Shown here: positions 2,987 through 57,010 of the stretch, piece after piece
How the letters are laid out: each line of letters opens with the position of its first letter
Numbering within the stretch: the stretch's first letter is position 1
The notes under the pieces: generated by a model
Told to the model about the DNA's origin: nothing
The model's input: only the letters and a program-made list of their open reading frames with translations
The model's database searches: none
Translations under genes and position numbers: made by a program
Assembly (NCBI GenBank): GCA_903841185.1
Contig: CAIMIV010000042.1
Coordinates: 11,319-75,318, forward strand
Length of the DNA: 64,000 nt
Source of the DNA: an uncultured bacterium
GTDB taxonomy: Bacteria; Patescibacteriota; Minisyncoccia; Moranbacterales; UBA2206
Direction: 5' to 3'

Positions 2987-4777
2987 ATGAAAAAAAATAA
3001 GAATCCTTTAATAAACTTGTTGAAATATTCTTGGAGGTATTCGCCAAAAAAGAAATTTTTTGTGCTGTTTGTAATTCTTTCCATCATCGCTAATGCTATT
3101 GGACTGCTGGATATCATTTTGATCGGACGTGTTTTTAACTCCGTGCAATTTGATTCAGCTGATCCGAATTTGTTGACATATATTATAAAAAATTTAGCTT
3201 TGCTTGTGTTGGTGACGTTGGGGTTTTGGATATTTCATGGTATTTCTCGGATTATTGAAACGAAAAACGCCTTCCTGGTCAGAAAAAACTACAAAAAAGA
3301 AATGTTTGATCGCGTGATGGATTTGCCGGTCGAATGGCAGAAGGATAATCACAGCGGGGATACGATCAATAAGATAAATAAGGCTTCTGAGGCTTTGTTT
3401 GCTTTTTCCGAAGAGATTTTTACTGTGGTGCAGAATATTGTCAAATTGACCGGGTCAGTTCTGATTCTGTTCTTTTTTGATTGGAAGATGGCGCTCGTCG
3501 CAGTTTTCGTTTCTGTTCTGGCAGTTCTGACTTCCATAAGATTCGACAGGGTTTTAGAGGAGGGATATGAAAAAGTTTATCGAGCTGAGAATTATTTGGC
3601 TGCAGGCATCCATGATTATGTCAGTAATATTATAACTGTCATTTCTTTGCGATTGAAAGAAAAGGTTTCGCGGGAGATCAATAGCCGGTCGATGACAGCA
3701 TTCGGAGTCTTTAAGAAAAATACAGTGATTAATGAAGTTAAATGGTTTTCTATTGCCATGTATCTTTCGGTTGTTATTTCTGGAGTCTTGATTTACAACG
3801 CCTATGTTTCGTATAAGGCGACGGGGGTGATAGTGATGGGGACGTTGTTTGTTCTATATAGTTATTTGAAAAATGTGGGAGATTTCTTTTTCAATTTTGC
3901 GTGGATGTATAACGTGATGGTGCAGAGGAATACCGCTGTTTCTTTGGCAGAAACCATTTGTGATGAGCATGAAAAAATTACTCTGAAAAATAAAACTTAT
4001 TATTTGCCGGAAAATTGGAAGGTCTTGCAAATTAAGAATTTGAAATTCAGTTACAAGAAGAAGAGTGATGAGGATTATGTCGGAGAGAATATCAATGATA
4101 TTTCAATTTGCTTGGAAAGAAAAACAAAAGTTGCTCTGATTGGAGAAAGTGGCTCCGGTAAGAGCACGGTTCTAGCGCTTATTCGGGGACTGCACAATGC
4201 AGAAAAGGCGAATGTTTATTGCGATGGGAAAAAACTGTCTAATGGGATGGAACATTTCTATGAACACTCGGCTTTGGTGCCGCAGGATCCCGAAATTTTT
4301 AATGCTTCTGTAGAGGAGAACATAACTATGGGCATAAAAAATGAGCTTTCTGAGGTTAAGAACGTTATTCGCTACGCCTGTTTTGATACGGTATTGGCAC
4401 GTTTGAAAAAAGGACTAAAAACTAATGTGCTAGAAAAAGGCGTTTCATTGAGTGGTGGAGAAAAACAGCGCTTAGCTCTGGCGCGCGGGTTGCTCATGGC
4501 TAAAAAATACGACTTTTTACTCTTAGATGAGCCGACCAGTAGCGTAGACAGTGAAAATGAGTTGAATATTTATAAACATATCTTTGAGAATTATAAAGAA
4601 AAGACCATTATTTCTGCCATTCATCGATTGCATCTATTGAGATATTTTGATTACATCTATTTTTTCGAAAAAGGAAAAATAATTGCGGAGGGAAATTTCA
4701 ATACATTATTGAATGATGAAAAATTTAAAATTCTTTGGAGTAACTATTCAAAAAGCCAATCCGATACTAACGCTTAA
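2987..4777 (+). CDS. ABC transporter, fused permease/ATP-binding subunit (probable heterodimer partner)
   Basis: A TM domain precedes Walker A GESGSGKST, signature LSGGEKQRLALARG, Walker B LLLDEPTSSVD and H-loop AIHRL. It lies 21 bp after the previous gene. Confidence 0.85.
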   Translation: MKKNKNPLINLLKYSWRYSPKKKFFVLFVILSIIANAIGLLDIILIGRVFNSVQFDSADPNLLTYIIKNLALLVLVTLGFWIFHGISRIIETKNAFLVRKNYKKEMFDRVMDLPVEWQKDNHSGDTINKINKASEALFAFSEEIFTVVQNIVKLTGSVLILFFFDWKMALVAVFVSVLAVLTSIRFDRVLEEGYEKVYRAENYLAAGIHDYVSNIITVISLRLKEKVSREINSRSMTAFGVFKKNTVINEVKWFSIAMYLSVVISGVLIYNAYVSYKATGVIVMGTLFVLYSYLKNVGDFFFNFAWMYNVMVQRNTAVSLAETICDEHEKITLKNKTYYLPENWKVLQIKNLKFSYKKKSDEDYVGENINDISICLERKTKVALIGESGSGKSTVLALIRGLHNAEKANVYCDGKKLSNGMEHFYEHSALVPQDPEIFNASVEENITMGIKNELSEVKNVIRYACFDTVLARLKKGLKTNVLEKGVSLSGGEKQRLALARGLLMAKKYDFLLLDEPTSSVDSENELNIYKHIFENYKEKTIISAIHRLHLLRYFDYIYFFEKGKIIAEGNFNTLLNDEKFKILWSNYSKSQSDTNA

Positions 4778-10296: not shown

Positions 10297-10346
10297 CCCT
10301 GCCTACCGGCAGGCAGGCAAACAAATCTCATCCGCCAGCTGGCGGA
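10297..10346. repeat. two short GC-rich palindromic hairpin sequences in the scpA-scpB spacer
   Basis: ccctgcctaccggcaggcaggcaaa is identical over 25 nt to 29464-29488. tccgccagctggcgga is identical over 16 nt to 22502-22517. Confidence 0.5.
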
Positions 10347-22024: not shown

Positions 22025-22945
22025 TTAAACCGTGATTTGACAGAGGCGCCATTTTTGTGCCAGGTCTTTATGAAATGCGATGTGCGCTTGCGGAAGACGC
22101 TTTCGGATTAGCACCGGCAGTTGTCTTTTTTGCTCCGGACTGATCTCCATGTAACATGTTACATGTACCAAGGCATGAGTATTTTTTAGAGTTTCCATTT
22201 GCTGCAGCAGCTCCTCATAGTGTGCCAGTCCGGCAGCGGCGCTGTAGAGAGCGGATCGCGGTTCATATTTTTGCACGGTGGGGTGGGTGGCGGCATAGAT
22301 TTCGTCGGAGAGATAGGGGAGGTTGGCCAAGATTATCATCTTGGAATTTTCAATGTTCAATTTACAATTTTCAATTAGTGTTTCAAGAAGATTTCCTTGT
22401 AAGAATTTTATTTTTTTGGCCACGCCGTGGGTCTGGGCGTTTTGCTGTGCAACCGTTAGCGCTGCATTAGAAATATCCACGGCGAAGAATTTTGAATTTT
22501 GTCCGCCAGCTGGCGGATTGAATTTCGAATCAATGATTAAATTTTTTAAGATAGAAATAATAATATTGCCCGACCCAGTTCCCACGTCTACAATCATTTG
22601 ATGTTTGATGTTTGATGTTTGATGTTTGCTGGATATTTCCTGCAAGGCCATCTCGACCATCAATTCGGTCTCAGGACGGGGGATGAGCGTATCTGGGGTC
22701 ACAGCGAATGACAGGCCAAAAAACTCCCTGTAGCCCAGAATATAGGCCAAGGGCTCATCGCTCATTCTTCGCGTAATTTTTAAGTCTAAATTTTTAATTT
22801 TTAATGATGGAAGGACATATTCCGGGTAGGTCAGGACGAACTCGCGCGACTTTCCAATTTCTGCCGCAATCAGCACATCCAAGTCCAAGCGGTCAATTTT
22901 CCCGGCATATTTTTTCTGCAGGTCCGCGATGGTGGTCTTTGTCAT
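22025..22945 (-). CDS. prmC: peptide chain release factor N5-glutamine methyltransferase
   Basis: EPLAYILGYREFFGLSFAVTPDTLIPRPETE, SAM motif VDVGTGSGNI, and NLPY in place of NPPY. Confidence 0.75.
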   Translation of the reverse strand: MTKTTIADLQKKYAGKIDRLDLDVLIAAEIGKSREFVLTYPEYVLPSLKIKNLDLKITRRMSDEPLAYILGYREFFGLSFAVTPDTLIPRPETELMVEMALQEISSKHQTSNIKHQMIVDVGTGSGNIIISILKNLIIDSKFNPPAGGQNSKFFAVDISNAALTVAQQNAQTHGVAKKIKFLQGNLLETLIENCKLNIENSKMIILANLPYLSDEIYAATHPTVQKYEPRSALYSAAAGLAHYEELLQQMETLKNTHALVHVTCYMEISPEQKRQLPVLIRKRLPQAHIAFHKDLAQKWRLCQITV

Positions 22946-29395: not shown

Positions 29396-29615
29396 TAACA
29401 AAGAATATCTGGTTCAAAAAATTTGCCGCAGTTAAAAATACAAGGAGGGCAAATTTTTTTCTCCCCTGCCTACCGGCAGGCAGGCAAATCCCGCACTTTT
29501 CCATTTTGTCGTAATTTAGGGTATAATAGGATTAATAAATAAATAGGAATATTAAGGTTTTATGCATAAAAACCAAAGTGCAGGACTTCAGATATTCTTA
29601 AACGTTAGGTGTAAT
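29396..29615 (+). repeat. copy 4 of the ~200-bp island repeat carrying a 22-bp palindromic insertion
   Basis: Same as copies 1 and 2, except that ctgcctaccggcaggcaggca is inserted after ctccc. The same 25-mer occurs at 10297. Confidence 0.7.
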
Positions 29616-46583: not shown

Positions 46584-49500
46584 ATGTCGCAAGCTGAGGA
46601 ATCATGCTCGATTTTTGAAAAATATAAACTGCACAAAAATTACTTCTTGTTGTTTGTAGTTTTTTGTGTCTTTGCCTTACTCAAATATCTTTCTCGATAC
46701 GAATCTTTGAGCAATTTTGTCATGGGGGCAATAGCCGTTTCCCCCTTCATCCTAACCACTGCTTTTCTCACTTGGGTCTATCTGAAGGATCGCAAGAACC
46801 ATGTCTTGTATAAGCTGATGATGAAGCAGGATGTTTTTCTCAAACTGGCTTTCAAATTGACTCTATCAGTTCTGGTGATATTGGTGGTTTTGTTTCCGGG
46901 CGATTGGAAACCGCTGTTGAATTTTTTTGATGTCGTCCGCCGGTCATTTTCCCTGGAGATGTATTTTCTTATTGCCTCATATCTCGCCGCCTTCATTCTC
47001 GCCGGCGAACTGATTTCTTTTTTTGTACGCTTGTATCAAATCAGTGTAGGCACCTATCATCACAAGATTTATCATGTTTTTAAAAAAACCCTCTACTCGA
47101 CTTTTTTTGTTTTTTTCCTGTTATTGCTTTTTTCCGTCCTGACTTATCCGCAAGCTTTCTATCCGATTACCGACGCTGTGTCCGATGTCATGTTCACCGT
47201 TAGTCAAGGTACCGTGGCTTTGTCTAAGTTATCCGGCGGGGAATTGCAAAGCAATACTTCGCTACTTAATCTGGCTAAGAATGCTTTTTCCAAAACTTCC
47301 TCCAATCTAGTCCGCAAGATGGATACAACTCAGTCGGATCTGGCCAAGTCTGTAGCACTCAGCCGGGATGCCCTTGTGCAATCGGTAGCGGACACTTCCA
47401 AAAATCTGACCGAATCGACTAATGGCAAAGTATCTTCCGATGGCGGCAAGATCAGTGGGGCGGTGGTTCTGTCCGGCAAAGGTTCTGACTTGACAGTGGA
47501 GGGCACCACTATCACTAAAGACATTCTACCGGATGCATCGTTGTCATATAATTTGGGCAGCGCAGGCAAGACTTGGAACACGGTGTATGCTCATCGCCTC
47601 ATCGGAGCGTCCCCGGTTTTCATCGGCACCGGTTCTTCCGCTCAAGGTTTGACTAATGATGGCGACCTAGTCGTGTCAAGCGATTTGGAAGTGCGAGGGA
47701 AAATTTATGCCACGCAAATTATCGGACCGGTTTCGAACACAAATAAATTTGAAGGCGGAATAATAACCAGTAGCATCGTTCCGGATGGATCAAATATCAA
47801 CCTCGGCAGCGCCAGCAATCATTTTTCCACGGTCTATGCCAACAGTCTCGTGGGTGTGCCTTTGAATTTTCTGCCGCTGATCGGTGGCACGCTTTCCGGT
47901 AATTTGAATTTAGGCAATCATAGTTTTACCACTTTCAATTCAGTCCTAGTGGACAATCTCAATGCGGATTTGTTGGATGGCAGTCAGGCCAGTGCTTTTG
48001 CCATGCTCAACGGCAGAAGTGGCGGACAAACAATCACTGGCGACACAGCGGCCGGCGGTAATCTGACCTTGTCTTCTACGAACAATGCTGCCAAAGGCAA
48101 AATAGTTTTTGGCAATTCTGCCTATGATGAAAAATCTAATCGATTGGGAATTGGCACAAACACTCCGGGCGCTCTGCTGCACCTGAACAATGCCACTGCC
48201 GGCCAAAAATCTTTGATCATCCAAGGTGCGCAAAACCAATCCGCTAATTTGGTGGAAATCTATGGCTATGATTCCGGTGGCATTCCGAATGGCCAGACTT
48301 TTGACAACGCGCCGGTTTTTGATGACGCGCATACCTTTGACAACGCACCGTCTTTGATCAATCTAACTTTTGATAATAATCCTTCTAGTCTATCTGCCAT
48401 CGCCAATTACAACAGCAGTTCAGCCTACAGCGCTTACAACAATTCGCATTCGTTGAAAATATATGCCTACAAAATAATCAACGGAATTAAAATTTTTAAT
48501 CCGACGCCGATTGTAACTGCATTGAATGACGACAACAGCGGTCGTACCTACACTATCAGCTGGTCTTGGTCGCCAGCCACGGATGCGGATGGTTATCGCA
48601 TCTTCAAATCCATTAGTGACGGCTCAGCTAATTTTGATAAATTCACGGATGTAGTCGGCACGAGTTTCTACGACACTGGCGCCACTGATTTTTCTCAAGA
48701 CGGAACCTTTGACGGACGCACGAGCTTGGCCTATGCGGTCAATTACAATACCGGTTCAAGCTACGCGGCTAACGGCAGTCAGCATCAATTAGTAGTGTAT
48801 GCCTATGAATTGCATAATGGCGTCAAAATTTTCAATAACGCGCCGTTGCACATCATCCCACAGATTGATTCCAGTGGTCGAAATTTTTCTCTGGATTATT
48901 CGTGGACAGCGGCCAGTGGCGCCGACGGTTATCGGGTGTTTGACTATGACAGCTCCGCCGGAATCTATGTCAGTCGCTATGCAGACATCACGACTACGAA
49001 CTTCCATGATGCCGGTCAAAATGATTTCACGAGCAGCGGAACATTCAATGGATCTACGAGCTATACCGACGGCCATGTAGTCAATTATGGCTCCGGTTCG
49101 AGCTACGTTGCCAATGGCCAAGAACACGGCGTACGCGTCTATGCATATAAAGAATATGCCGGCACCAAGATTTTCAATCCGGATTATGCGCAAGCCCAGT
49201 TTACTGACAATAACAGCGGTCAGCACTATACCATCGATTGGTCATGGACGGCGGCCGCGGGTGCCACCGGTTATCGCGTGTTTGATTTCGACAGTGGCAA
49301 CAGCATCAATTTTGATAAATATAGCGATGTCACTAATTCCAATTTCCAAGACGCCAGTCCCGGCAGCTTCACTCACACTGGTACTTTTGACGGCATGACG
49401 GAATATACCGGTTCGATGATGGCTTCTATTTCCAAAGACGGCATTATCGACGCCGCTGGTTTTTCCATCAATGGCGTGGCGCTTAGCGTTTCCGGCTGGG

Positions 49501-52500
49501 GGAATATTGGTGGCAATCTAGCCGATCAAACTGATTTGGTGTCAGCCTTGGGAGCCAAATTGAGTCTCACAGGCGGCACGATGAGTGGTATCTTGAATTT
49601 ACCCAGCAATGGTTTGATAGTCGGCACTACTCAGATAGTCGCCCTTAACGGAGCGGTGGGCATTGGCACAGCGACCCCGTCAGCCAGTTATCAATTGACC
49701 GTCAATGGCGATGTCAATGTGACTAACGGCCTGTTGCGTTTTTCCGGCACGCAGATCGGACTTAATAATTTGAAAAATGTCGCAGTCGGTTCGCCCGCGG
49801 TCAATCAAGTACTGGCGTTCAATGGCACCAATTGGGTCAATACCACCTTAAGCAGTGTTTCCGCGGGCAATGTCGTGTCTTTCTATTTGCAAACTCAAGC
49901 TGGTGACATTTCACCTTTCAAGCAATTGCAAGCTACTCCGGGCGCGGGTTCTGAGGTGGATGTGCATGCCACAGTCAGCAACAACCTGAGCAGTCCAACT
50001 TTGCTGGAAGAATATATCTCTTCCGCCGCGGGACTTGGTGGCAATCAAATTGATGGCGGGGAGTGGGAATTTGACACCTTCGGTTTCGTTTCCGATGCAA
50101 GCGGCGATTCGGAAATTCAAATCGATGTTTTTACGCGAGCTACCAACGGCACCGAGACCTATCTATTCACCGCCAATACCGGATCAATCACCGGCACTAC
50201 CGCTGATGCACAAGCGATGGCAGTCAATTCGACTCAATCAGCTTTCAGCATCGCACCCAGTGACCGTTTAGTGGTCAAATATTCGGCTAAAACGGATTTG
50301 CTCAGCGGAACAACAATCCATCTTTTGCATAACGGTCAAGATCATTATTCACATTTTCATACGCCAATGCTCACGCGCCATAATGATATGGCCGGTTTGC
50401 AAGGCGGAACCAATCAGCAATATTATCATCTAACATCTTCTGAATACACCGGGACAGGGACAGGGACTTTTGTGCGGCAATCTTCACCGGCTTTCACCGG
50501 CACAACGACCGGTATCACCGCAACTATGGTGGGGTTGGGGAATGTGCCGAATTTGGCGTTCAGCGGTTCCAATACGGGCGACAATGCCGTCAATTCTCTG
50601 TATAGTGGCTTGATTACTAATGCCACGCACACAGGTGACGCGACGGGCGCAAGCGCTTTGACCGTGGTGGGCATCAACGGCACGCAATTGTCAGCATTAG
50701 CGACCGGCATTTTGAAAAACACCACCACCACTGGCGTGCCGAGTATCGCCGTGGCGGGAGATTTTCCGACTTTGAATCAAAACACCTCCGGCACCGCCGC
50801 CGGACTTTCTGCTATATTGGTATCTACCAGTGGCGGTTCTGGCATTAACAATTCCGGCACTTTGACTTGGGGCACAGGTGGCACCTTGGGAACAAATGCT
50901 TTCACGAGCACAGCCTATGCGCCATTGGCTTCACCGACATTTACGGGAGACATAAATTTCCCTGGTTCTGGGGTTTGGAATTCGAGTGGCAACGTGGGGA
51001 TTGGGACGATTTCGCCAAACGCACTACTAGATATAAATCATATTGGTGCAATTGCTATTCCCGGCTTTAATATTGCGGCAACAGATGCAAACAATGCCTA
51101 TCAATTAAAAATCTTGGGCCACACAGGAGGGGTCTCTCATACACAAATTGTAACGGACAATTCCAATAGCAGATTAACAGTAATGGCAGGAGCGCAAAAT
51201 GACTTTGCTCCACGCATGTTCTTTATTGGTGCGCAAGATGCAACAACATCCTTGCGAGGTTGGGGAACATTTGATTATGGTTCAAATTTATATGATTTAG
51301 ATACTGCAGAGTTCCAAGTAAGACAGGTCTCCACTGGTGGGTTCACTACCATGTTCAGATCAGTTGGAAAAGCTGGGTCATTATTTCCTTCTGGAACAGT
51401 TGGAATAGGAAGTTCTGTCATATCTGTCGCCAAATTTTCGGTAGAAAATACCGGAACTACGGATTCTTTTTTAGTTAACGATGAGGCGAGTGACACAACG
51501 CCGTTTGTAATTAATACAGATGGTAACGTTGGTATTGGGAGGACAAGTCCGGGCTATAAATTAGATATTTCTACGCCAGGAAATTCTGATGCACAATTAC
51601 ATATTAATTCATCAAATCCTTATAGTGATACGGGAGGGTATATTAGTAGCGGAGCGGCGGCTAATCTAGGTTTGGCAGGAGGAACCGCACTTAGTGGTGG
51701 GGCATGGAAAGTTAAAACAACTACCGGAGCTTCACTTATAAATTTGGGTTCAGGCGCAATGACTTTTTATACAAATGACACAAGTGCTGCTACTCCCGGA
51801 GATATCTTGAGCCTGTCAGCCCGTATGAAAATAACCAATACCGGCAACGTCGGCATCGGGGCGACGAGTCCTCTATACAAATTTGATGTATCAAATGACG
51901 GAGTAGCGAAATCCTTGCTCCACTTTTCTCAGAGCGGAACGGACGTTGGTGGATGGTTAACATCTGTGGGTGACGGTAATTTTTATATGTCATCTGGCAT
52001 GGAATATGATGCGGGAGCTGGTGGCTGGATTCAAAAATCATCAAACGGAGTTGGCAATATCATTGGCGGTGATTCGCCAGGACTGTCATTTTACACGACA
52101 AGCGGAACGGCAGTTGGATCTGTTGCAACCCTTGCTGTACGTATGAGAATAGATACGAGTGGTAACGTCGGGATTGGAACGACGGCTCCATCAACTAATT
52201 TTGAAGTTTATAGTCCCACAGTGACAAATGGTATTGTTATCCCTTTGAGAGTTAATGGAAGAATTGGAAATACGAGCGGTCAAGATGGAGTGGGAATGGA
52301 TTTTAATGGCATTTGGGATTCTTCCGGATCTGCTTTTACATTGGGTAGAATTGTCGGCAGAGAATATGGTGGTTATAAAGGAGGTTTATCTTTTTTGGTT
52401 AACAATAATGGAGCTACTGCTCCCAATTCTGCAGTAATGTCCGAGGCAATGAGAATGGATAATGTCGGTAACGTGGGGATTGGGACATCGAGTCCTGTGG

Positions 52501-55500
52501 CGAGGTTAGATGTTTCGCCAACAGTTATTACCACCACTGACCTGAAGGGGATGAATAGTGGATTGGTCTATAACGGTGGATCTACTATGACGAATTATTA
52601 CGGCCATTACATTGCCACCCCATCCGGAACAGGAATCATTACAAATAAATATGCCTTAGTAACTGAAGCTGGAGCTGGCAACGTTGGCATCGGCACGACG
52701 AGTCCAACAAACATCTTGTCTCTCGGCAACGGGGCAGCGCAAAAATTTTGGATTGAAAACTCAGTCAGTGGAACTGTCGGTCGAGCCTTGACTGTCGCTG
52801 CTGGCGGGACTGTCGCTGGCGGGACTGACATTGCGGGTGGCAATCTGATTTTGCAATCCGGTCTTGGCACGGGCACTGGCGCTAGTGCAATTTCTTTTCA
52901 AACCGGCACAACTCTCACAACCGGCACAACTTTGCAGACAATGTCTACAAAGATGACGATTTTGGGGAATGGGAATGTGGGGATTGGAACGACGAGCCCG
53001 GCAACTTTAGCGCATGTGAATCTTTCATCGGCTGCGGTGGGGACAGCGTTATATTCTTCTAATTCTGCGCTGACCCTTTCTAATCAGGATAATTCCGTGT
53101 CAGCAGATTACGTGGTTGCTGATGGAACTGCTACGCCAGGGTATCGAGGAGTTATAAGAGGTATCAGGGCGCGTGGAACTTTGGCATCTCCCACTGTGCC
53201 AGTATTAAATGATATTGTCTTTTCAGTTTTGGGTGGTATTTATGATGGTGCATCGGTTTTAAATACGGCTGCCGTAGACCTTAAAGTTGATGGTACTGTG
53301 TCTTCTGGTGTAGCTCCGCAGAGAATATCTTTTAGTACAAAGACCGGCGGGAGTGGTGGATTTGTTGAAAGGCTGACAATAAAAAATGACGGACTTATCG
53401 GGATTGGCACGACGAGCCCGGCGAGTTCTTTGAATATTGCATCATCCTTAGTGAGCACTGCTAATTATGGAACTTTGTCGGTGGGATCTTCTCCATGGGA
53501 CGGATCAACTAGTGGTAAGTTTGTTGGAGGCAGTAGTGGCACCCTAATTGCGGTTAATGCTCCTAATGTTGCAGGACTTGGATTGATTGATCTCCAATCA
53601 TTCGGCGTCAGTAGATTCAGAGTGGATTCAACGTCTGGTGTTACGATTGGAAATGCCAGTGCGGGTGCACAAAACGGTACTCACATAAGTGACCTGATGA
53701 TTTACCCTACTAGCGCTATCAATCTGACGGCCGAAGGCAGTCCAAACCTGATTATGAATGCTAATTCGTTTACAATTACTGGTGGGTATGCTACGCAAAG
53801 ATTTAATTTATTTAACCAATCAACTATCACAGCTGTTTCAGCTTTAAACATTTCAACCGAAGCGGATACATTGAATATAGCCGGCGCACCAATTTCCGCT
53901 GGTTCGGCCACGATCGCCAAATCAATTGGACTGCGGATTTCCGCCGGGACCTCGGTCGCCGCGGGGGTGACGAACGCGTACGGTTTGTATGTTGATGCTC
54001 CAACTGGTGCGAGTAATAATTATGCAGCGGTATTTAATACCGGCAATGTGGGGATTGGGACGACGAGTCCCGGATATAAATTATCAGTGGCGACACCAGG
54101 AGTGACGGCTTCACAGATGCAGATTAATTCAGCCAATCCGGCGGATGATACGGGGATGTATCTGACTTCAGCAGCGTCTGGCAATGGATTTGTTTCGGCA
54201 GGGGCTGCTTATAATGGCAGCGCTTGGGTCGCGAAGTCTGCGACCGCTTGGTCATTTGGTGGCGGAGCGTCTGGTATCAGTTGGTCTTATGATACTGGAT
54301 TAACTGCAGGCAATACTTTTACACAATCGACACGATTGAAAATTGGCACGACAGGACTGATTAGTATAGGGACTGGCAATTTATTAGCTGGGCTGGACGT
54401 TCAAAATAGCATTACTGCTACTTCGGCAGTGGCTTATGGAACAAGGCTTCAGCAAACATTAACCGCGGCGGCTAACAATGATGCGCTTGATGCCGTTTAT
54501 ATTAATCCAACTTTTACAGATGGGGCGAATACAGGCGTGACACATAACGGATTAATCGTAGTAAGTGGCAATGTCGGTATCGGGACAACGACGCCGGCCT
54601 ATACACTGGATGTCAAAGCCGCCGGCACTGGCGTCATTGCTCGCTTCAATAATAATAACAGCACCGGATGCACAGTTGCTGATGGCGGAACGATCACTTG
54701 CACTTCCGATGTCAGGCTAAAAAAGAACATCAATGATTTGAATTATGGATTGAACGAAATCATGTCTTTGCGTCCGGTTGACTATAATTGGAGATATCAA
54801 AATGACAATGGCCAAAAATATCTAGGTTTCATCGCTCAAGAAGTGGAACAACTGTTGCCACAGTTAATTATGACAGACGCTAACGGCTACAAAGAACTTA
54901 ACACAATCGGGCTTATTCCAATCCTGACTAAATCCGTGCAAGAGCAGCAGACTGAAATTGGTGTGCAGACGCAATCAATTGCGTCTCTACAGATCAAGAC
55001 TGATAGCAACATCACCACTCTGACGGATCTGCAAAAATCAGTTGACACGCAATTGAATGTGGTGGGCAAGAGTTTGAATGTGATTAACACGCAGATCAGC
55101 GCCCAGGCGCAATCGATTGCGTCGCTGCAAGGCAAATTGGATGATCAGGAAACGAGATTGAAAGATCAAGAAGCTTTGTCAATTACTTTGCAAGCACAAA
55201 TTGCCAAATTGCAAGAACTGGTTAATCCGGATGCACTGGCATTGCTAAGCAGCAAACTGGATGCTATCTCAGAATTTATTACGATTTCTGACGGAAAATT
55301 TGATTTACTGCAAGGCACATTGAAAGCTAGTGGTGTGGAGACGGGCAAATTGGTGATTTCTGTTTCTGCGGGATCTGAAAACAACACTATCGGTGAAGCG
55401 GTTATTTGTCCGGCCGGTAAAAAAATAGACTCGACTATCCTCGCGGGAGGGACTGATTATAACAAATGTATTCTGGATGACGCAAGTTCTGATGGCAAGA

Positions 55501-55682
55501 GCGTGAAGGTGAAAGCTAGCGCGGTGACCAAGGATTCCAAAGTTTTCGTAACAGCTAAGACTGTTTCCGATAAGCCTTTGGCTGTTTCTGTGATTGAAGA
55601 CGGCAAGGGCTTTACAGTGGAAACCAAAACAGTAGTCAGTGAAGATCTGAAATTTGACTGGTGGATCGTAGGTGCAAAATAA
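46584..55682 (+). CDS. giant membrane-anchored cell-surface fibre protein with C-terminal phage tail-fibre-type intramolecular chaperone (peptidase S74) domain
   Basis: 3032 aa. Five to six N-terminal TM helices, three FN3-like repeats (W-S-W-xxA-DGYR-F), about 20 NVGIGT(T/S)SP repeats, TSDVRLKKNI...LRPVDYNW S74 autoproteolytic motif, and a coiled-coil tail. Confidence 0.7.
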   Translation: MSQAEESCSIFEKYKLHKNYFLLFVVFCVFALLKYLSRYESLSNFVMGAIAVSPFILTTAFLTWVYLKDRKNHVLYKLMMKQDVFLKLAFKLTLSVLVILVVLFPGDWKPLLNFFDVVRRSFSLEMYFLIASYLAAFILAGELISFFVRLYQISVGTYHHKIYHVFKKTLYSTFFVFFLLLLFSVLTYPQAFYPITDAVSDVMFTVSQGTVALSKLSGGELQSNTSLLNLAKNAFSKTSSNLVRKMDTTQSDLAKSVALSRDALVQSVADTSKNLTESTNGKVSSDGGKISGAVVLSGKGSDLTVEGTTITKDILPDASLSYNLGSAGKTWNTVYAHRLIGASPVFIGTGSSAQGLTNDGDLVVSSDLEVRGKIYATQIIGPVSNTNKFEGGIITSSIVPDGSNINLGSASNHFSTVYANSLVGVPLNFLPLIGGTLSGNLNLGNHSFTTFNSVLVDNLNADLLDGSQASAFAMLNGRSGGQTITGDTAAGGNLTLSSTNNAAKGKIVFGNSAYDEKSNRLGIGTNTPGALLHLNNATAGQKSLIIQGAQNQSANLVEIYGYDSGGIPNGQTFDNAPVFDDAHTFDNAPSLINLTFDNNPSSLSAIANYNSSSAYSAYNNSHSLKIYAYKIINGIKIFNPTPIVTALNDDNSGRTYTISWSWSPATDADGYRIFKSISDGSANFDKFTDVVGTSFYDTGATDFSQDGTFDGRTSLAYAVNYNTGSSYAANGSQHQLVVYAYELHNGVKIFNNAPLHIIPQIDSSGRNFSLDYSWTAASGADGYRVFDYDSSAGIYVSRYADITTTNFHDAGQNDFTSSGTFNGSTSYTDGHVVNYGSGSSYVANGQEHGVRVYAYKEYAGTKIFNPDYAQAQFTDNNSGQHYTIDWSWTAAAGATGYRVFDFDSGNSINFDKYSDVTNSNFQDASPGSFTHTGTFDGMTEYTGSMMASISKDGIIDAAGFSINGVALSVSGWGNIGGNLADQTDLVSALGAKLSLTGGTMSGILNLPSNGLIVGTTQIVALNGAVGIGTATPSASYQLTVNGDVNVTNGLLRFSGTQIGLNNLKNVAVGSPAVNQVLAFNGTNWVNTTLSSVSAGNVVSFYLQTQAGDISPFKQLQATPGAGSEVDVHATVSNNLSSPTLLEEYISSAAGLGGNQIDGGEWEFDTFGFVSDASGDSEIQIDVFTRATNGTETYLFTANTGSITGTTADAQAMAVNSTQSAFSIAPSDRLVVKYSAKTDLLSGTTIHLLHNGQDHYSHFHTPMLTRHNDMAGLQGGTNQQYYHLTSSEYTGTGTGTFVRQSSPAFTGTTTGITATMVGLGNVPNLAFSGSNTGDNAVNSLYSGLITNATHTGDATGASALTVVGINGTQLSALATGILKNTTTTGVPSIAVAGDFPTLNQNTSGTAAGLSAILVSTSGGSGINNSGTLTWGTGGTLGTNAFTSTAYAPLASPTFTGDINFPGSGVWNSSGNVGIGTISPNALLDINHIGAIAIPGFNIAATDANNAYQLKILGHTGGVSHTQIVTDNSNSRLTVMAGAQNDFAPRMFFIGAQDATTSLRGWGTFDYGSNLYDLDTAEFQVRQVSTGGFTTMFRSVGKAGSLFPSGTVGIGSSVISVAKFSVENTGTTDSFLVNDEASDTTPFVINTDGNVGIGRTSPGYKLDISTPGNSDAQLHINSSNPYSDTGGYISSGAAANLGLAGGTALSGGAWKVKTTTGASLINLGSGAMTFYTNDTSAATPGDILSLSARMKITNTGNVGIGATSPLYKFDVSNDGVAKSLLHFSQSGTDVGGWLTSVGDGNFYMSSGMEYDAGAGGWIQKSSNGVGNIIGGDSPGLSFYTTSGTAVGSVATLAVRMRIDTSGNVGIGTTAPSTNFEVYSPTVTNGIVIPLRVNGRIGNTSGQDGVGMDFNGIWDSSGSAFTLGRIVGREYGGYKGGLSFLVNNNGATAPNSAVMSEAMRMDNVGNVGIGTSSPVARLDVSPTVITTTDLKGMNSGLVYNGGSTMTNYYGHYIATPSGTGIITNKYALVTEAGAGNVGIGTTSPTNILSLGNGAAQKFWIENSVSGTVGRALTVAAGGTVAGGTDIAGGNLILQSGLGTGTGASAISFQTGTTLTTGTTLQTMSTKMTILGNGNVGIGTTSPATLAHVNLSSAAVGTALYSSNSALTLSNQDNSVSADYVVADGTATPGYRGVIRGIRARGTLASPTVPVLNDIVFSVLGGIYDGASVLNTAAVDLKVDGTVSSGVAPQRISFSTKTGGSGGFVERLTIKNDGLIGIGTTSPASSLNIASSLVSTANYGTLSVGSSPWDGSTSGKFVGGSSGTLIAVNAPNVAGLGLIDLQSFGVSRFRVDSTSGVTIGNASAGAQNGTHISDLMIYPTSAINLTAEGSPNLIMNANSFTITGGYATQRFNLFNQSTITAVSALNISTEADTLNIAGAPISAGSATIAKSIGLRISAGTSVAAGVTNAYGLYVDAPTGASNNYAAVFNTGNVGIGTTSPGYKLSVATPGVTASQMQINSANPADDTGMYLTSAASGNGFVSAGAAYNGSAWVAKSATAWSFGGGASGISWSYDTGLTAGNTFTQSTRLKIGTTGLISIGTGNLLAGLDVQNSITATSAVAYGTRLQQTLTAAANNDALDAVYINPTFTDGANTGVTHNGLIVVSGNVGIGTTTPAYTLDVKAAGTGVIARFNNNNSTGCTVADGGTITCTSDVRLKKNINDLNYGLNEIMSLRPVDYNWRYQNDNGQKYLGFIAQEVEQLLPQLIMTDANGYKELNTIGLIPILTKSVQEQQTEIGVQTQSIASLQIKTDSNITTLTDLQKSVDTQLNVVGKSLNVINTQISAQAQSIASLQGKLDDQETRLKDQEALSITLQAQIAKLQELVNPDALALLSSKLDAISEFITISDGKFDLLQGTLKASGVETGKLVISVSAGSENNTIGEAVICPAGKKIDSTILAGGTDYNKCILDDASSDGKSVKVKASAVTKDSKVFVTAKTVSDKPLAVSVIEDGKGFTVETKTVVSEDLKFDWWIVGAK

Positions 55683-55861
55683 TAAGCATATTTTGCCTTA
55701 GAGCCGAAAAAGTTTGACCCGGTTGCGTCTTTGCCCTATACTATAAAGGCTATTCCAGAAGATCTTTTGGAGACTGAATTTGGCAGGGACTATAGACAAA
55801 TTTTTTATATCTGTTATAATAAATTACAGTTTTTAGAAAGCAGAATTAGGGTAAAAATTAT

Positions 55862-55935
55862 GGGCCCTTAGCTCAGTTGGCTAGAGCGCCTCGTTTGCAC
55901 CGAGGAGGTCGGGAGTTCGAATCCCCCAGGGTCCA
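55862..55935 (+). tRNA. tRNA-Ala (anticodon UGC)
   Basis: Cloverleaf with acceptor GGGCCCU/AGGGUCC, anticodon loop uuUGCac and T-loop GTTCGAATC. Confidence 0.9.
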
Positions 55936-56065
55936 CACTTCGACTCATCTTGATTTACATCAAGATTCGCTCAGTGTAAACACCAGCCAATGAATATTCA
56001 TTGAGCTTGAGAAACAACACTGAGTCGAAGTACCATGAGCTTGTCGAATGGCAAGCGTAGTAACT

Positions 56066-56341
56066 ATGGAAATTATTGAAAAAGAGGGTCTCTGGTATGT
56101 TTATATAGCCAGAGCAAGAACAAATAAATACTACGTAGGAATCAGCAATAATGTTGAAAAAAGAATAGACAAGCACAATAGTGGGAACGGTTCCAATATG
56201 GCAAAGCAACAAGGACCATTTTGCTTGGTTTATAAATCTGGGTCATTTATAAACAAATCAGAAGCAAGAAAGAGAGAGGCTCAAATAAAAAAATGGAGTA
56301 GAGTTAAAAAAGAGAATCTCTTGAATGGAGAGTGGAAATAA
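56066..56341 (+). CDS. GIY-YIG nuclease superfamily protein (UPF0213/YhbQ-like)
   Basis: LWYVYIARARTNKYYVGISNNVEKRIDKHN...IKKWSR. Confidence 0.75.
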   Translation: MEIIEKEGLWYVYIARARTNKYYVGISNNVEKRIDKHNSGNGSNMAKQQGPFCLVYKSGSFINKSEARKREAQIKKWSRVKKENLLNGEWK

Positions 56342-56349
56342 AATAGCAC

Positions 56350-56431
56350 GGGCGTATAGCTCAGTTTCCGCCGGTAGGCGGACCAGCCTATGGCTGGGGT
56401 CGAAAAATGACGAGGCCTCTGGTTCGAGTCC
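56350..56431 (+). pseudogene. partial duplicate of tRNA-Ile with an internal 41-nt GC-hairpin insertion
   Basis: The first 19 nt are identical to tRNA-Ile (gggcgtatagctcagtt). Then comes tccgccggtaggcgga ccagcctatggctgg, then tgacgaggcctctggttcgagtcc identical to the tRNA-Ile 3' half. No 3' acceptor strand follows. Confidence 0.4.
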
Positions 56432-56460
56432 GAGAAAAGCAGTTCACAATATAAAATGTA

Positions 56461-56534
56461 GGGCGTATAGCTCAGTTGGTTAGAGCGCGTCACTGATAAT
56501 GACGAGGCCTCTGGTTCGAGTCCAGATATGCCCA
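56461..56534 (+). tRNA. tRNA-Ile (anticodon GAU)
   Basis: Cloverleaf with anticodon stem cguca/ugacg, loop cuGAUaa, T-loop GTTCGAGTC and acceptor gggcgua/uaugccc. Confidence 0.9.
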
Positions 56535-56661
56535 CCTATGTTTTTTGTTTATGTTGACAACATTATTTTTATAGTATACACTTATATATAGAAAAGCCTT
56601 CAGGGGCTTTTTAAAAAACCGTAAAAACGCTTTTAAGTAAAAAAGGCTTAAATAAAAGAAA

Positions 56662-56853: not shown

Positions 56854-57010
56854 GCATCCCGCAACGAATTCCATAATAGTTTTGTGTTATGGAAAAATTT
56901 GTTTGCAGATTCGCCTGCGGCTACACTAAATTATAAAAATTAAAGATTAATTAGCGAATTCGTGCGGGACGCTCATATTTGTAGCTGCTCGTACCTCGCA
57001 AACAAATATG
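56854..57010 (+). promoter_or_regulatory. structured ~155-nt leader element upstream of nusG
   Basis: A long-range stem pairs gcatcccgcaacgaattc with gaattcgtgcgggacgc. The proximal stem catatttgt/acaaatATG contains the start codon. Confidence 0.45.

What the first reader, a model, noticed from the sequence alone, without database searches (positions are those of the whole stretch)
56066..56534. Partial tRNA-Ile duplicate with GC-hairpin insertion beside a GIY-YIG gene
Nineteen 5' nt and 24 internal nt of tRNA-Ile(GAU) are duplicated 110 bp upstream of the intact gene. The D-arm to anticodon region is replaced by two GC-rich mini-hairpins (tccgcc ggta ggcgga; ccagcc tat ggctgg). This could be a remnant of site-specific integration into the tRNA, a decayed intron-bearing copy, or a target of the palindrome family.
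Basis: seen in the sequence. Interest (0 to 1): 0.5.

Follow-up and report, generated by a model that had tools for sequence, protein, structure and literature searches.

The report
Dead tRNA-Ile copy left by GIY-YIG cassettes
The partial tRNA-Ile copy is real: it is a dead, hairpin-carrying pseudo-tRNA of a kind that recurs wherever tiny GIY-YIG nuclease genes have settled in or beside tRNA genes of Patescibacteria (CPR bacteria), which points to an apparently undescribed family of tRNA-gene parasites.

Summary
Window 56350-56366 (17 nt) and 56406-56431 (26 nt) are identical to the intact tRNA-Ile(GAU) at 56461-56536. Two GC hairpins plus 8 nt (56367-56405) replace gene positions 18-37, and the 3' acceptor strand is missing. 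Four independent assemblies carry it. It is not a tRNA, an intron-bearing tRNA or an integrase att scar.

The genome is a Candidatus Moranbacteria. A relative whose GIY-YIG protein is 92% identical has one intact tRNA-Ile exactly where the pseudo-copy sits. Fourteen relatives have adjacent tRNA-Ala and tRNA-Ile with no GIY-YIG gene.

The same layout recurs elsewhere: a tRNA 5' part ending in the D-loop, GC hairpin(s), resumption at position 36-38, truncation in or after the T-arm, a short spacer, then the intact tRNA. In related genomes this module is part of two other small GIY-YIG cassettes. One (GIY3) follows tRNA-Ile and ends inside a hairpin-bearing partial tRNA-Ile. The other (GIY2) lies between a hairpin-bearing partial tRNA-Lys and the intact gene.

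The neighbouring ORF (GIY1) belongs to a family found after tRNA or tmRNA 3' ends in 47 of 58 loci, behind a covarying structured leader.

My best reading is an ORF-less relic of GIY-YIG-driven duplication at tRNA-Ile (confidence 0.55).

The parts
55793..55820 (+). Promoter-like site (TAGACA-16-TGnTATAAT). It is the only good candidate upstream of the tRNA-Ala / GIY-YIG / pseudo-tRNA / tRNA-Ile unit.
   Evidence: 11 of 12 matches. The scan found a few weaker promoter-like matches inside the leader and the ORF, but none in the interval between the GIY-YIG stop codon and tRNA-Ile.
55862..55936 (+). tRNA-Ala(UGC), intact.
55936..56051 (+). Structured leader of the GIY1 cassette. It starts right after the tRNA-Ala discriminator. 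P1 is 55937-47 paired with 56021-31. P2 is a hairpin at 55948-65. The conserved TTCGCTCAGTGTAAAC is at 55966-81. P3 is a hairpin at 56033-51.
   Evidence: (I16). It is conserved after 12 or more different tRNA identities. The three bases after the discriminator covary with two inner sites.
56066..56341 (+). GIY1: a 91-aa single-domain GIY-YIG protein (97 aa from the ATG at 56048) of the UPF0213/Slx1-like branch.
   Evidence: dN/dS is 0.18 against the 92%-identical relative.
56350..56366 (+). Pseudo-tRNA-Ile block 1: tRNA-Ile gene positions 1-17, 17/17 identical to the intact gene.
   Evidence: It keeps the same ..AATAGCAC|GGGCGT junction as the intact tRNA-Ile of relative L081.
56367..56382 (+). 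GC hairpin 1, TCCGCC-GGTA-GGCGGA.
   Evidence: The same stem occurs in pseudo-tRNA-Ala of L008, in pseudo-tRNA-Lys of L194, and at window 10331 and 22502.
56383..56405 (+). GC hairpin 2, CCAGCC-TAT-GGCTGG (56383-97), plus an 8-nt linker GGTCGAAA. It fills the slot just before the anticodon-loop resumption point.
   Evidence: It is positionally equivalent to the CTCGCC..GGCGAG / CCCGCC..GGCGGG hairpin of L199, L089 and the GIY3 tails.
56406..56431 (+). Pseudo-tRNA-Ile block 2: gene positions 38-63 (anticodon-loop 3' side to T-arm), 26/26 identical to the intact gene.
56432..56460 (+). 29-nt AT-rich spacer with no ORF.
   Evidence: It shows no significant similarity to the tRNA-Ala 5' flank.
56461..56536 (+). 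Intact tRNA-Ile(GAU), the functional copy.
   Evidence: 72.6 bits.
10298..10346 (.). Dispersed members of the same GC-palindrome families: CCTGCCTACCGGCAGGCAGG (10298; a second copy at 29465) and TCCGCCAGCTGGCGGA (10331; a second copy at 22502).

Best explanation
The feature is a non-functional pseudo-tRNA-Ile. It is an ORF-less relic of the activity of small GIY-YIG nuclease cassettes that live in and beside tRNA genes in Patescibacteria.

Such cassettes sit directly against an essential tRNA gene, and part of that tRNA is duplicated next to them. The redundant partial copy carries GC-rich hairpin(s) where the D-stem 3' strand, the anticodon-stem 5' strand and the anticodon should be. It resumes at position 36-38 and ends in or after the T-arm.

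In the window, the original tRNA-Ile lay 10 nt after the GIY1 stop codon, as it still does in relative L081. That copy has become the hairpin-bearing pseudo-copy. An intact tRNA-Ile 111 nt downstream now does the work.

Inferred steps:
- Breakage of the tRNA gene by a GIY-YIG nuclease, by analogy with phage SegB, which cuts inside tRNA genes and drives segmental amplification.
- Duplicative repair.
- Capture or insertion of palindromic repeats.
- Loss of the GIY3-type ORF.

The pseudo-copy is probably transcribed from the tRNA-Ala promoter as the 3' trailer of the GIY1 mRNA and cut away from tRNA-Ile by RNase P. It cannot fold as a tRNA.
For: Shown:

(a) Relatives L081 and L082 (GIY1 92% identical) have tRNA-Ala | leader | GIY1 | one intact tRNA-Ile at the same ..AATAGCAC|GGGCGT junction. 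Fourteen nusG-syntenic relatives have adjacent tRNA-Ala and tRNA-Ile, and none of the 80 fetched loci has a GIY-YIG gene.

(b) The same pseudo-tRNA-Ile layout occurs in L089, where sister contig L088 lacks the 112-nt unit, and upstream of tRNA-Ile in L199 and L200. Alignment A6 puts the second hairpin of all three in the same slot as the hairpin at the 3' end of GIY3 ORFs.

(c) GIY3 was read in 8 loci. The order is: intact tRNA-Ile, ATG immediately after it, an 86-aa ORF, then last codons made of tRNA-Ile 17-27 plus the hairpin CTCGCC-GC-GGCGAG plus a TAA lying in the anticodon loop, then 39 nt identical to the intact tRNA. L200 has two tandem GIY3 + pseudo-tRNA units.

(d) GIY2 was read in 5 of 5 loci. 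The order is: pseudo-tRNA-Lys 1-21, then a TCCGGC/TCCGCC hairpin, then the anticodon part, then the ORF, whose stop codon is the TAG at positions 8-10 of the intact tRNA-Lys. In L196 the pseudo-copy differs from the local tRNA-Lys, so it travels with the cassette.

(e) GIY1 lies within 300 nt downstream of a same-strand tRNA or tmRNA in 47 of 58 loci, against about 6% of bases being tRNA-proximal. It follows 12 or more tRNA identities, and several loci carry a duplicate of the tRNA 3' end after the ORF.

(f) CCTGCC-type palindromes are precise insertions in redundant tRNA copies (L199, L157, L089).

(g) The pseudo-copy fails ARAGORN and the Rfam tRNA model.

(h) The scan predicts no promoter in the interval between the GIY1 stop codon and tRNA-Ile.

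Precedent: the T4/T6 SegB GIY-YIG nuclease sits among tRNA genes, cuts at a T-loop-like motif and causes tandem amplification (PMC13096335; PMC2330249).
Against: - No GIY2 or GIY3 ORF, or fragment of one, is detectable in the window. The link to a lost ORF therefore rests on shared layout.
- The window's two hairpins differ in sequence from the GIY3-tail hairpin. Only their position and the resumption point (38 versus 37) match.
- Pseudo-tRNA-Ala modules exist in relatives with no GIY-YIG gene within 5 kb (L001, L002, L008, L010).
- A GC hairpin within 120 nt after a GIY1 stop codon is rare: 5 of 73 loci, against 1.9% of background windows.
- No nuclease activity or target has been shown for any of these proteins.
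- The order of events (duplication, hairpin gain, ORF loss) is not resolved.
Confidence: 0.55

Rival explanations
1. Generic local tandem duplication of tRNA-Ile by slippage or unequal recombination, unrelated to any GIY-YIG nuclease. The redundant copy was later colonised by mobile GC-rich palindromes and is decaying neutrally.
For: - The palindrome families are dispersed in intergenic DNA of this and related genomes: 38 copies of three stems in 1.1 Mb, against 0-1 for composition-matched controls.
- They are precisely inserted in redundant copies.
- Pseudo-tRNA-Ala occurs in loci without GIY-YIG genes.
- L010 shows a decayed hairpin and a diverged 5' part.
Against: - It does not explain why the same layout and the same resumption point are built into GIY2 and GIY3 cassettes.
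- It does not explain why the hairpins sit in the loop/arm slots.
- The blocks are 100% identical next to fully replaced sequence, which is a mosaic rather than gradual decay.
Confidence: 0.2
2. The pseudo-copy is a functional RNA element kept by selection. It could be, for example, a GC-hairpin 3' end that stabilises the GIY1 mRNA after RNase P releases tRNA-Ile, or a leader that modulates tRNA processing.
For: - It lies 9-26 nt after the GIY1 stop codon inside one transcription unit.
- Hairpin stems show compensatory changes between lineages: TCCGCC/GGCGGA, CCCGCC/GGCGGG and TCCGGC/GCCGGA. Loops include GAAA and TTCG.
- Pseudo-tRNA-Ala persists in four relatives.
Against: - L081/L082 and L088 lack it and appear viable.
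- Most GIY1 loci have no such hairpin.
- The fold of the region is not exceptional (z = -0.96).
- The L010 copy is decaying.
- Palindromes can keep their symmetry without any RNA function.
Confidence: 0.15
3. An attL/attR-type scar of an integrase-mediated island that entered and left tRNA-Ile.
For: Partial tRNA direct repeats are the classic signature of such islands. tRNA and tmRNA genes are classic integration sites.
Against: - The 5' part of the tRNA is duplicated, not the 3' part.
- Only 29 nt separate the repeats.
- There is no integrase ORF between or beside the repeats.
- Integrase crossover does not explain the hairpins.
Confidence: 0.04
4. Assembly artefact, or an intron-containing functional tRNA.
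For: - Contigs of other assemblies break in this region.
- L086 joins the 26-nt block directly to the tRNA 3' end.
Against: - Four independent assemblies share the 5' block and both hairpins, and L084 confirms the spacer and the start of the second copy.
- No acceptor 3' strand, no anticodon and no intron family are present.
Confidence: 0.03

Closest known systems
Phage T4/T6 SegB, a free-standing GIY-YIG homing endonuclease in the tRNA gene cluster (PMC2330249; PMC13096335)
   Same: - A GIY-YIG nuclease gene embedded among tRNA genes.
- SegB cuts inside tRNA genes at a T-loop-like motif (RAWTSGAAC) and drives tandem segmental amplification of tRNA plus nuclease gene.
- Here L200 shows tandem GIY3 + pseudo-tRNA units, and the pseudo-copies end in or near the T-loop.
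   Different: - SegB is about 220 aa with DNA-binding domains and is phage-borne.
- These ORFs are 84-91 aa with a single domain. GIY1 is UPF0213/Slx1-like (PDB 1zg2, 1ywl). They sit in cellular Patescibacteria genomes.
- They abut or overlap tRNA sequence and leave hairpin-bearing pseudo-tRNAs.
- No cleavage data exist for them.
Integrative elements at tRNA/tmRNA genes (tyrosine-integrase att sites)
   Same: An inserted element is flanked by a partial direct repeat of the tRNA, so that an intact tRNA is kept. tmRNA is also used as a site (L186-L188).
   Different: - No integrase is present.
- The elements are only 0.3-0.4 kb.
- 5' parts of the tRNA can be duplicated.
- The redundant copy carries a GC hairpin.
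- In GIY3 the tRNA-derived DNA encodes the protein's C-terminus and stop codon.
Dispersed palindromic repeats in AT-rich genomes (REP/BIME, Rickettsia palindromic elements, yeast mitochondrial GC clusters, Volvox organelle palindromes PMC2670323)
   Same: Short GC-rich palindromes in many copies, found in intergenic DNA and occasionally inside genes, with precise insertion and no obvious coding capacity.
   Different: - The sequences are unrelated.
- No RAYT-type partner has been identified.
- Here they lie preferentially in loop/arm slots of redundant tRNA copies.
- One 20-mer also occurs exactly in 12 viral contigs of 33-70% GC.
Non-intron insertion sequences with GIY-YIG ORFs in CPR rRNA genes (PMC11270868)
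   Same: They occur in the same bacterial group. GIY-YIG ORFs sit in insertions that are neither group I nor group II introns. The insertions lie at the tips or bases of stem-loops of a structured RNA gene.
   Different: Those are in rRNA genes. Whether the proteins belong to the GIY1-3 families was not tested here.

Membership tests
Functional tRNA (cloverleaf; Rfam RF00005 / ARAGORN) | Paired acceptor stem, D, anticodon and T arms, detectable by tRNA models | tested here: not met
   ARAGORN makes no call and Rfam gives no tRNA hit at E<=10 on 56350-56440. The D-stem 3' strand, the anticodon-stem 5' strand, the anticodon and the acceptor 3' strand are absent.
tRNA pseudogene / partial paralogue | Significant identity to a functional paralogue together with loss of essential parts | tested here: met
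   17/17 and 26/26 identical blocks. 20 nt are replaced by 39 nt and the 3' end is lost.
Integrase att-site scar in a tRNA gene | Duplicated segment is the tRNA 3' part, and an island with an integrase lies (or lay) between the repeats | tested here: not met
   The 5' part is duplicated. The spacer is 29 nt and holds no ORF.
Intron-containing tRNA (group I, or archaeal-type bulge-helix-bulge) | Complete exons flanking the insert; an intron RNA signature | tested here: not met
   The exons are incomplete. No intron family matches at E<=10. The Patescibacteria tRNA introns described so far are group I introns of 184-894 nt in the anticodon loop (PMC13011429).
GIY-YIG nuclease superfamily, UPF0213/Slx1-like branch (the neighbouring ORF) | GIY-YIG domain with conserved Tyr, Tyr, Arg, His and Glu; no auxiliary domain | tested here: met
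   Pfam PF01541, E 6.9e-18. A profile of the family hits PDB 1zg2 at E 9e-23 and 1ywl at E 4.5e-17. The invariant columns include Y13, Y23, G25, R33, H37 and E71. Length is 84-97 aa.
Free-standing homing endonuclease gene (SegB-like) | Presence/absence polymorphism at one site in relatives | tested here: met
   14 relatives have tRNA-Ala and tRNA-Ile adjacent with no GIY-YIG gene. The window, L081 and L088/L089 have GIY1 between them.
Free-standing homing endonuclease gene (SegB-like) | Appended DNA-binding domain(s) that give site specificity | tested here: not met
   Single-domain proteins of 84-91 aa.
Free-standing homing endonuclease gene (SegB-like) | Cleaves the cassette-less allele and is copied into it | not testable with these tools
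   This needs biochemistry or genetic crosses.
Pseudo-tRNA + GC-hairpin module of tRNA-linked GIY-YIG cassettes (architecture defined here from GIY2/GIY3 loci) | tRNA fragment broken in the D-loop; GC hairpin in place of the anticodon-stem 5' side; resumption at position 36-38; intact tRNA of the same identity adjacent | tested here: met
   Window: break after position 17, hairpins, resumption at gene position 38, intact tRNA-Ile 29 nt on. Compare L089, L199, the GIY3 tails and the GIY2 leaders.
Pseudo-tRNA + GC-hairpin module of tRNA-linked GIY-YIG cassettes (architecture defined here) | A GIY2- or GIY3-type ORF directly joined to the module | tested here: not met
   tblastn finds no GIY2 or GIY3 similarity in the window. 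Only GIY1 lies upstream. The window copy is therefore called an ORF-less relic, which is an inference.
Dispersed palindromic repeat family (REP-like in behaviour) | Many dispersed copies; precise insertion polymorphism | tested here: met
   Searches give the copy numbers against controls. One search shows three precise insertions relative to the paralogous intact tRNA. A transposase partner was not tested.

The most novel reading that the evidence does not exclude
Minimal GIY-YIG ORFs (84-91 aa), together with tRNA-derived and structured nucleic-acid modules, form an undescribed class of mobile elements that parasitise tRNA and tmRNA genes in Patescibacteria.

- GIY1 sits behind a leader whose two inner sites base-pair with the discriminator and the three bases after it. 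This could provide RNA-level targeting, or coupling to tRNA 3' processing.
- GIY2 and GIY3 are fused to hairpin-bearing pseudo-tRNAs. These would keep the host tRNA intact while blocking self-cleavage or recombinational loss of the cassette.
- The GC palindromes and solo pseudo-tRNAs, such as the one in this window, would be their footprints.
Probability: 0.3. Interest if true: 0.8.

Novelty: new variant of a known kind. Interest (0 to 1): 0.6.

Why it matters
If this is right, the pseudo-tRNA marks a widespread but unreported way of life for selfish nuclease genes. They are tiny, single-domain GIY-YIG ORFs. They ride on the strongest and safest transcription units of reduced genomes, the tRNA operons. 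They borrow tRNA sequence for their own stop codons and C-termini, and they leave recognisable hairpin-bearing pseudo-tRNAs behind.

This has three consequences.
- It explains recurrent contig breaks and odd 'tRNA fragments' in CPR metagenome-assembled genomes.
- It gives a testable function to part of the large UPF0213/Slx1-like family, whose role in bacteria is unknown.
- It extends the SegB paradigm (nuclease-driven tRNA-locus amplification) from phages to cellular genomes.

Tried and rejected
- Rfam at gathering and at E<=10 thresholds gave nothing on the pseudo-copy, the leader or the inserts in relatives.
- The similarity I suspected between the 29-nt spacer and the tRNA-Ala 5' flank is not significant: score 15 against a shuffle mean of 15.7.
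- The divergent tail of contig L085 matches nothing in the window or in the loci fetched by then.
- The idea that GC hairpins are a regular right end of GIY1 cassettes is rejected: 5 of 73 loci.
- GC hairpins are only about two-fold enriched near tRNA genes overall: 24 of 184, against 6.3% of bases.
- The hairpins are not terminator-like. No T-run follows them, and tRNA-Ile appears to depend on read-through.
- A viral-contig scan for the D-loop + hairpin pattern gave only two chance hits in high-GC coding DNA.
- The secE-nusG spacer across relatives was too variable to test palindrome gain and loss.
- Two of my regex parses of the leader failed or were mis-framed. In one search my choice of the P3 3' strand favoured complementarity, so the P3 figure is biased. 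P1 and the alternative helix are not affected.
- NCBIfam and PHROGs gave no name for the protein.
- Six literature searches found no description of these cassettes, pseudo-tRNAs or palindromes.
Full report
**1. The observation**

The window holds two tRNA genes, tRNA-Ala(UGC) at 55862-55936 and tRNA-Ile(GAU) at 56461-56536. Upstream of tRNA-Ile, 56350-56366 repeats gene positions 1-17 exactly and 56406-56431 repeats positions 38-63 exactly.

Between the two blocks, 39 nt replace 20 nt of tRNA. These are the hairpins TCCGCC-GGTA-GGCGGA and CCAGCC-TAT-GGCTGG followed by GGTCGAAA. After the second block the T-stem 3' strand and the acceptor 3' strand are gone. Twenty-nine nt then lead to the intact gene.

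The repeats are far beyond chance (E 7e-9 for the 26-mer within the window). tRNA models reject the copy. Contigs from other samples contain the 5' block and both hairpins: L084, L085 and L086, plus a fourth assembly for which no DNA was returned. L084 agrees with the window through 56497. The feature is real.

**2. The locus**

The flanking genes are secE, nusG, rplK and rplA, and the closest relatives are Candidatus Moranbacteria. One promoter-like site (55793-55820) precedes tRNA-Ala. The scan predicts none in the interval between the GIY-YIG ORF's stop codon and tRNA-Ile. The unit is therefore probably transcribed in the order tRNA-Ala, leader, GIY-YIG ORF, pseudo-tRNA, tRNA-Ile.

The ORF (56066-56341) is a single-domain GIY-YIG protein of the UPF0213/Slx1-like branch. 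It is under purifying selection (dN/dS 0.18 against a 92%-identical relative).

**3. Homologous loci**

Of 80 nusG-syntenic loci, 14 have tRNA-Ala and tRNA-Ile 4-243 nt apart, in either orientation, and none carries a GIY-YIG gene. Contigs L081 and L082 carry the 92%-identical GIY-YIG protein. Their order is tRNA-Ala, the same leader, the ORF, and then one intact tRNA-Ile at the same ..AATAGCAC|GGGCGT junction where the window has the pseudo-copy.

The pseudo-copy therefore occupies the original tRNA-Ile position. Its two blocks match the window's own tRNA-Ile allele, not L081's. It is thus a local product that is either young or homogenised: zero differences in 43 nt, while dS between the two lineages is 0.18.

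**4. The layout recurs**

- L089 (GIY-YIG protein about 75% identical) has GGGCTTATAGCTCAGCTGGTTA[CCTGCCTGCCGGTAGGCAGG]GAGCGCG[CCCGCCGCGGCGGG]TAATGACGAGGT.., then a repeat of the 28-nt flank, then the intact tRNA-Ile. Sister contig L088 is the same over the region read but lacks this 112-nt unit.
- Pseudo-tRNA-Ala modules with a TCCGCC or CCCGCC hairpin in the D-loop precede tRNA-Ala in L001, L002, L008 (two tandem units) and L010.
- Further cases involve tRNA-Met, Val, Ala, Thr, Arg and Leu.

**5. The module belongs to other small GIY-YIG cassettes**

*GIY3* (a mostly Moranbacteria family) was read in L003, L199, L200, L204 and L206-L209. The ATG follows the intact tRNA-Ile directly. The 86-aa ORF ends W-L-K/G-R-A/T-R-R-G-E-stop. 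These last codons are tRNA-Ile positions 17-27, a hairpin CTCGCC-GC/GTG-GGCGAG, and a TAA lying in the anticodon loop. They are followed by 39 nt identical to the intact tRNA.

L199 and L200 add an upstream pseudo-tRNA-Ile with two hairpins, TAATGACGAGGT, a 29-nt spacer and the intact gene. This is the window's layout. Alignment A6 places the second hairpin of the window, L089 and L199 in the slot of the GIY3 tail hairpin. L200 has two tandem GIY3 + pseudo-tRNA units.

*GIY2* was read in 5 of 5 loci. Pseudo-tRNA-Lys 1-21 is followed by a hairpin, then the anticodon part, then the ORF. The hairpin is TCCGGC-N4-GCCGGA in four loci and TCCGCC-AGCC-GGCGGA in L194. The ORF's stop codon is the TAG at positions 8-10 of the intact tRNA-Lys. 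In L196 the pseudo-copy does not match the local tRNA-Lys, so it travels with the cassette.

The window itself has no GIY2 or GIY3 remnant.

**6. The neighbouring ORF's own family (GIY1)**

In 47 of 58 non-redundant loci a same-strand tRNA or tmRNA lies within 300 nt upstream. Twelve or more tRNA identities are represented.

The interval is a conserved leader that begins right after the discriminator: C-N-N-TTCGA(C/T)TCG, an optional hairpin, CTCGCTCA-NNN-TAAAC, then ..CGAGTCGAA-NN-A, then a P3 hairpin NNNNGAGC..GTCGANNNN. The three bases after the discriminator (CAC, CCA, CTC or CCC) covary perfectly with both inner sites. P1 is 91% paired and the alternative helix 100% paired, each far above the shuffled and slid controls. 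The P3 figure is biased by my parsing. Rfam has no matching family.

Several loci carry a short copy of the upstream tRNA's 3' end after the ORF.

**7. The palindromes**

TCCGCC..GGCGGA, CCTGCC..GGCAGG and CCCGCC..GGCGGG occur 18, 13 and 7 times in 1.1 Mb, against 0-1 for composition-matched stems. The window has CCTGCCTACCGGCAGGCAGG at 10298 and 29465 and TCCGCCAGCTGGCGGA at 10331 and 22502.

That same 20-mer is inserted precisely, without loss or duplication of flanking bases, in the downstream pseudo-tRNA-Ile of L199. Its reverse complement is inserted the same way in the D-loop of L089's pseudo-copy. A close variant is in the T-loop of a tRNA-Met 3' duplicate in L157. In the window the hairpins replace sequence instead.

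**8. Interpretation**

Shown:
- The pseudo-copy is real, dead and local.
- It sits at the original tRNA-Ile site.
- It has the layout of modules that are physically part of GIY2 and GIY3 cassettes.

Inferred:
- It is an ORF-less relic of such cassette activity.
- It was generated by nuclease-induced breakage and duplicative repair of the tRNA gene, with palindromes captured or inserted.

Phage SegB offers a precedent. It is a GIY-YIG nuclease in the T4/T6 tRNA cluster that cuts within tRNA genes at a T-loop-like motif and drives tandem amplification (PMC13096335).

Points against:
- No ORF remnant is present in the window.
- The hairpin sequences differ from the GIY3 tail.
- Pseudo-tRNA-Ala modules occur without nearby GIY-YIG genes.
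- There is no biochemistry.

Rivals are nuclease-independent duplication followed by palindrome colonisation, and a selected RNA role, for example a 3' stabiliser of the GIY1 mRNA. An integrase scar, an intron-bearing tRNA and an artefact are unlikely.

**9. Novelty**

Six literature searches found no description of these cassettes, the pseudo-tRNA modules or the palindromes. Related reports cover group I introns in Patescibacteria tRNA genes (PMC13011429) and non-intron GIY-YIG insertions in CPR rRNA genes (PMC11270868).

The pseudo-tRNA alone is a modest finding. Its context is a new variant of free-standing homing-endonuclease biology.

Noticed in passing
window 55936-56051, and the same element in L081, L087-L167: A conserved structured leader lies between tRNA/tmRNA 3' ends and GIY1 ORFs. 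The three bases after the discriminator (CAC, CCA, CTC or CCC) covary with two inner sites. No Rfam family matches. Tandem and solo copies exist, for example after tRNA-Ile in L081 and doubled in L090, L099 and L137.
   Followed up: partly
window 10298-10317, 29465-29484, 10331-10346, 22502-22517: Dispersed GC-rich palindromes in AT-rich intergenic DNA. The 20-mer CCTGCCTGCCGGTAGGCAGG also occurs exactly in 12 IMG/VR viral contigs of 33-70% GC, sometimes in several copies per contig with conserved flanks. Its nature is unknown.
   Followed up: partly
L085 3990-4049 (corresponds to window 56397 onward): One independent assembly diverges right after hairpin 2 into AAATAAAGAGGGGGAGAGTGTTGCATGAACACACTTCCCCCCTCCTAT, itself an imperfect palindrome, and then the contig ends. 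It could be a population variant with a longer hairpin cluster, or a chimeric contig end. L086 instead joins the 26-nt block to the tRNA 3' end, which is probably a repeat collapse.
   Followed up: partly
L011 about 4324-4510, L015 about 4264-4392, L019 about 3369-3584 (minus strand): An insert of about 125 nt after tRNA-Ala (..GAACGGGAAAGGGTCGGAAAACGGGAGTTTTCCGTT..) is flanked by a direct repeat of the tRNA-Ala 3' end GTCCTGTCCGGTCCA. No Rfam family matches. It appears to be another small element at a tRNA 3' end.
   Followed up: partly
L001-L024, and L005 4250-4450: The tRNA-Ala/tRNA-Ile pair lies in either orientation relative to secE-nusG among close relatives. In L005 tRNA-Ile is flanked by 20-nt inverted repeats (TCCCGCACTAAAAATTCAAG / CTTGAATTTTAGTGCGGGA), and an anticodon-loop fragment is displayed in a GC hairpin.
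   Followed up: no
L189 600-780 and L190 (after tRNA-Lys): Arrays of several hairpin-bearing pseudo-tRNAs occur. Two pseudo-copies of different tRNAs in L189 share the same TCCGGC/GCCGGA stem at the same position. L190 has a third, 5'-truncated tRNA-Lys copy with the hairpin downstream of the intact gene.
   Followed up: partly
window 56864-56963: A long imperfect inverted repeat (TCCCGCAACGAATTC ... GAATTCGTGCGGGA, 72 nt apart) lies in the secE-nusG spacer. A similar one is in L007. A conserved nusG leader (GGGACGCTCATATTTGTAGCTGCTCG..) follows it.
   Followed up: no
window 46584-55682: A 3032-aa ORF ends just upstream of the tRNA operon promoter. On an identical contig it carries a Peptidase_S74 (intramolecular chaperone / tail-spike-like) hit.
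   Followed up: no
L186-L188 (Omnitrophota-labelled contigs): The gene order is SmpB, tmRNA, GIY1. The cassette therefore also follows tmRNA genes and occurs outside Patescibacteria.
   Followed up: partly
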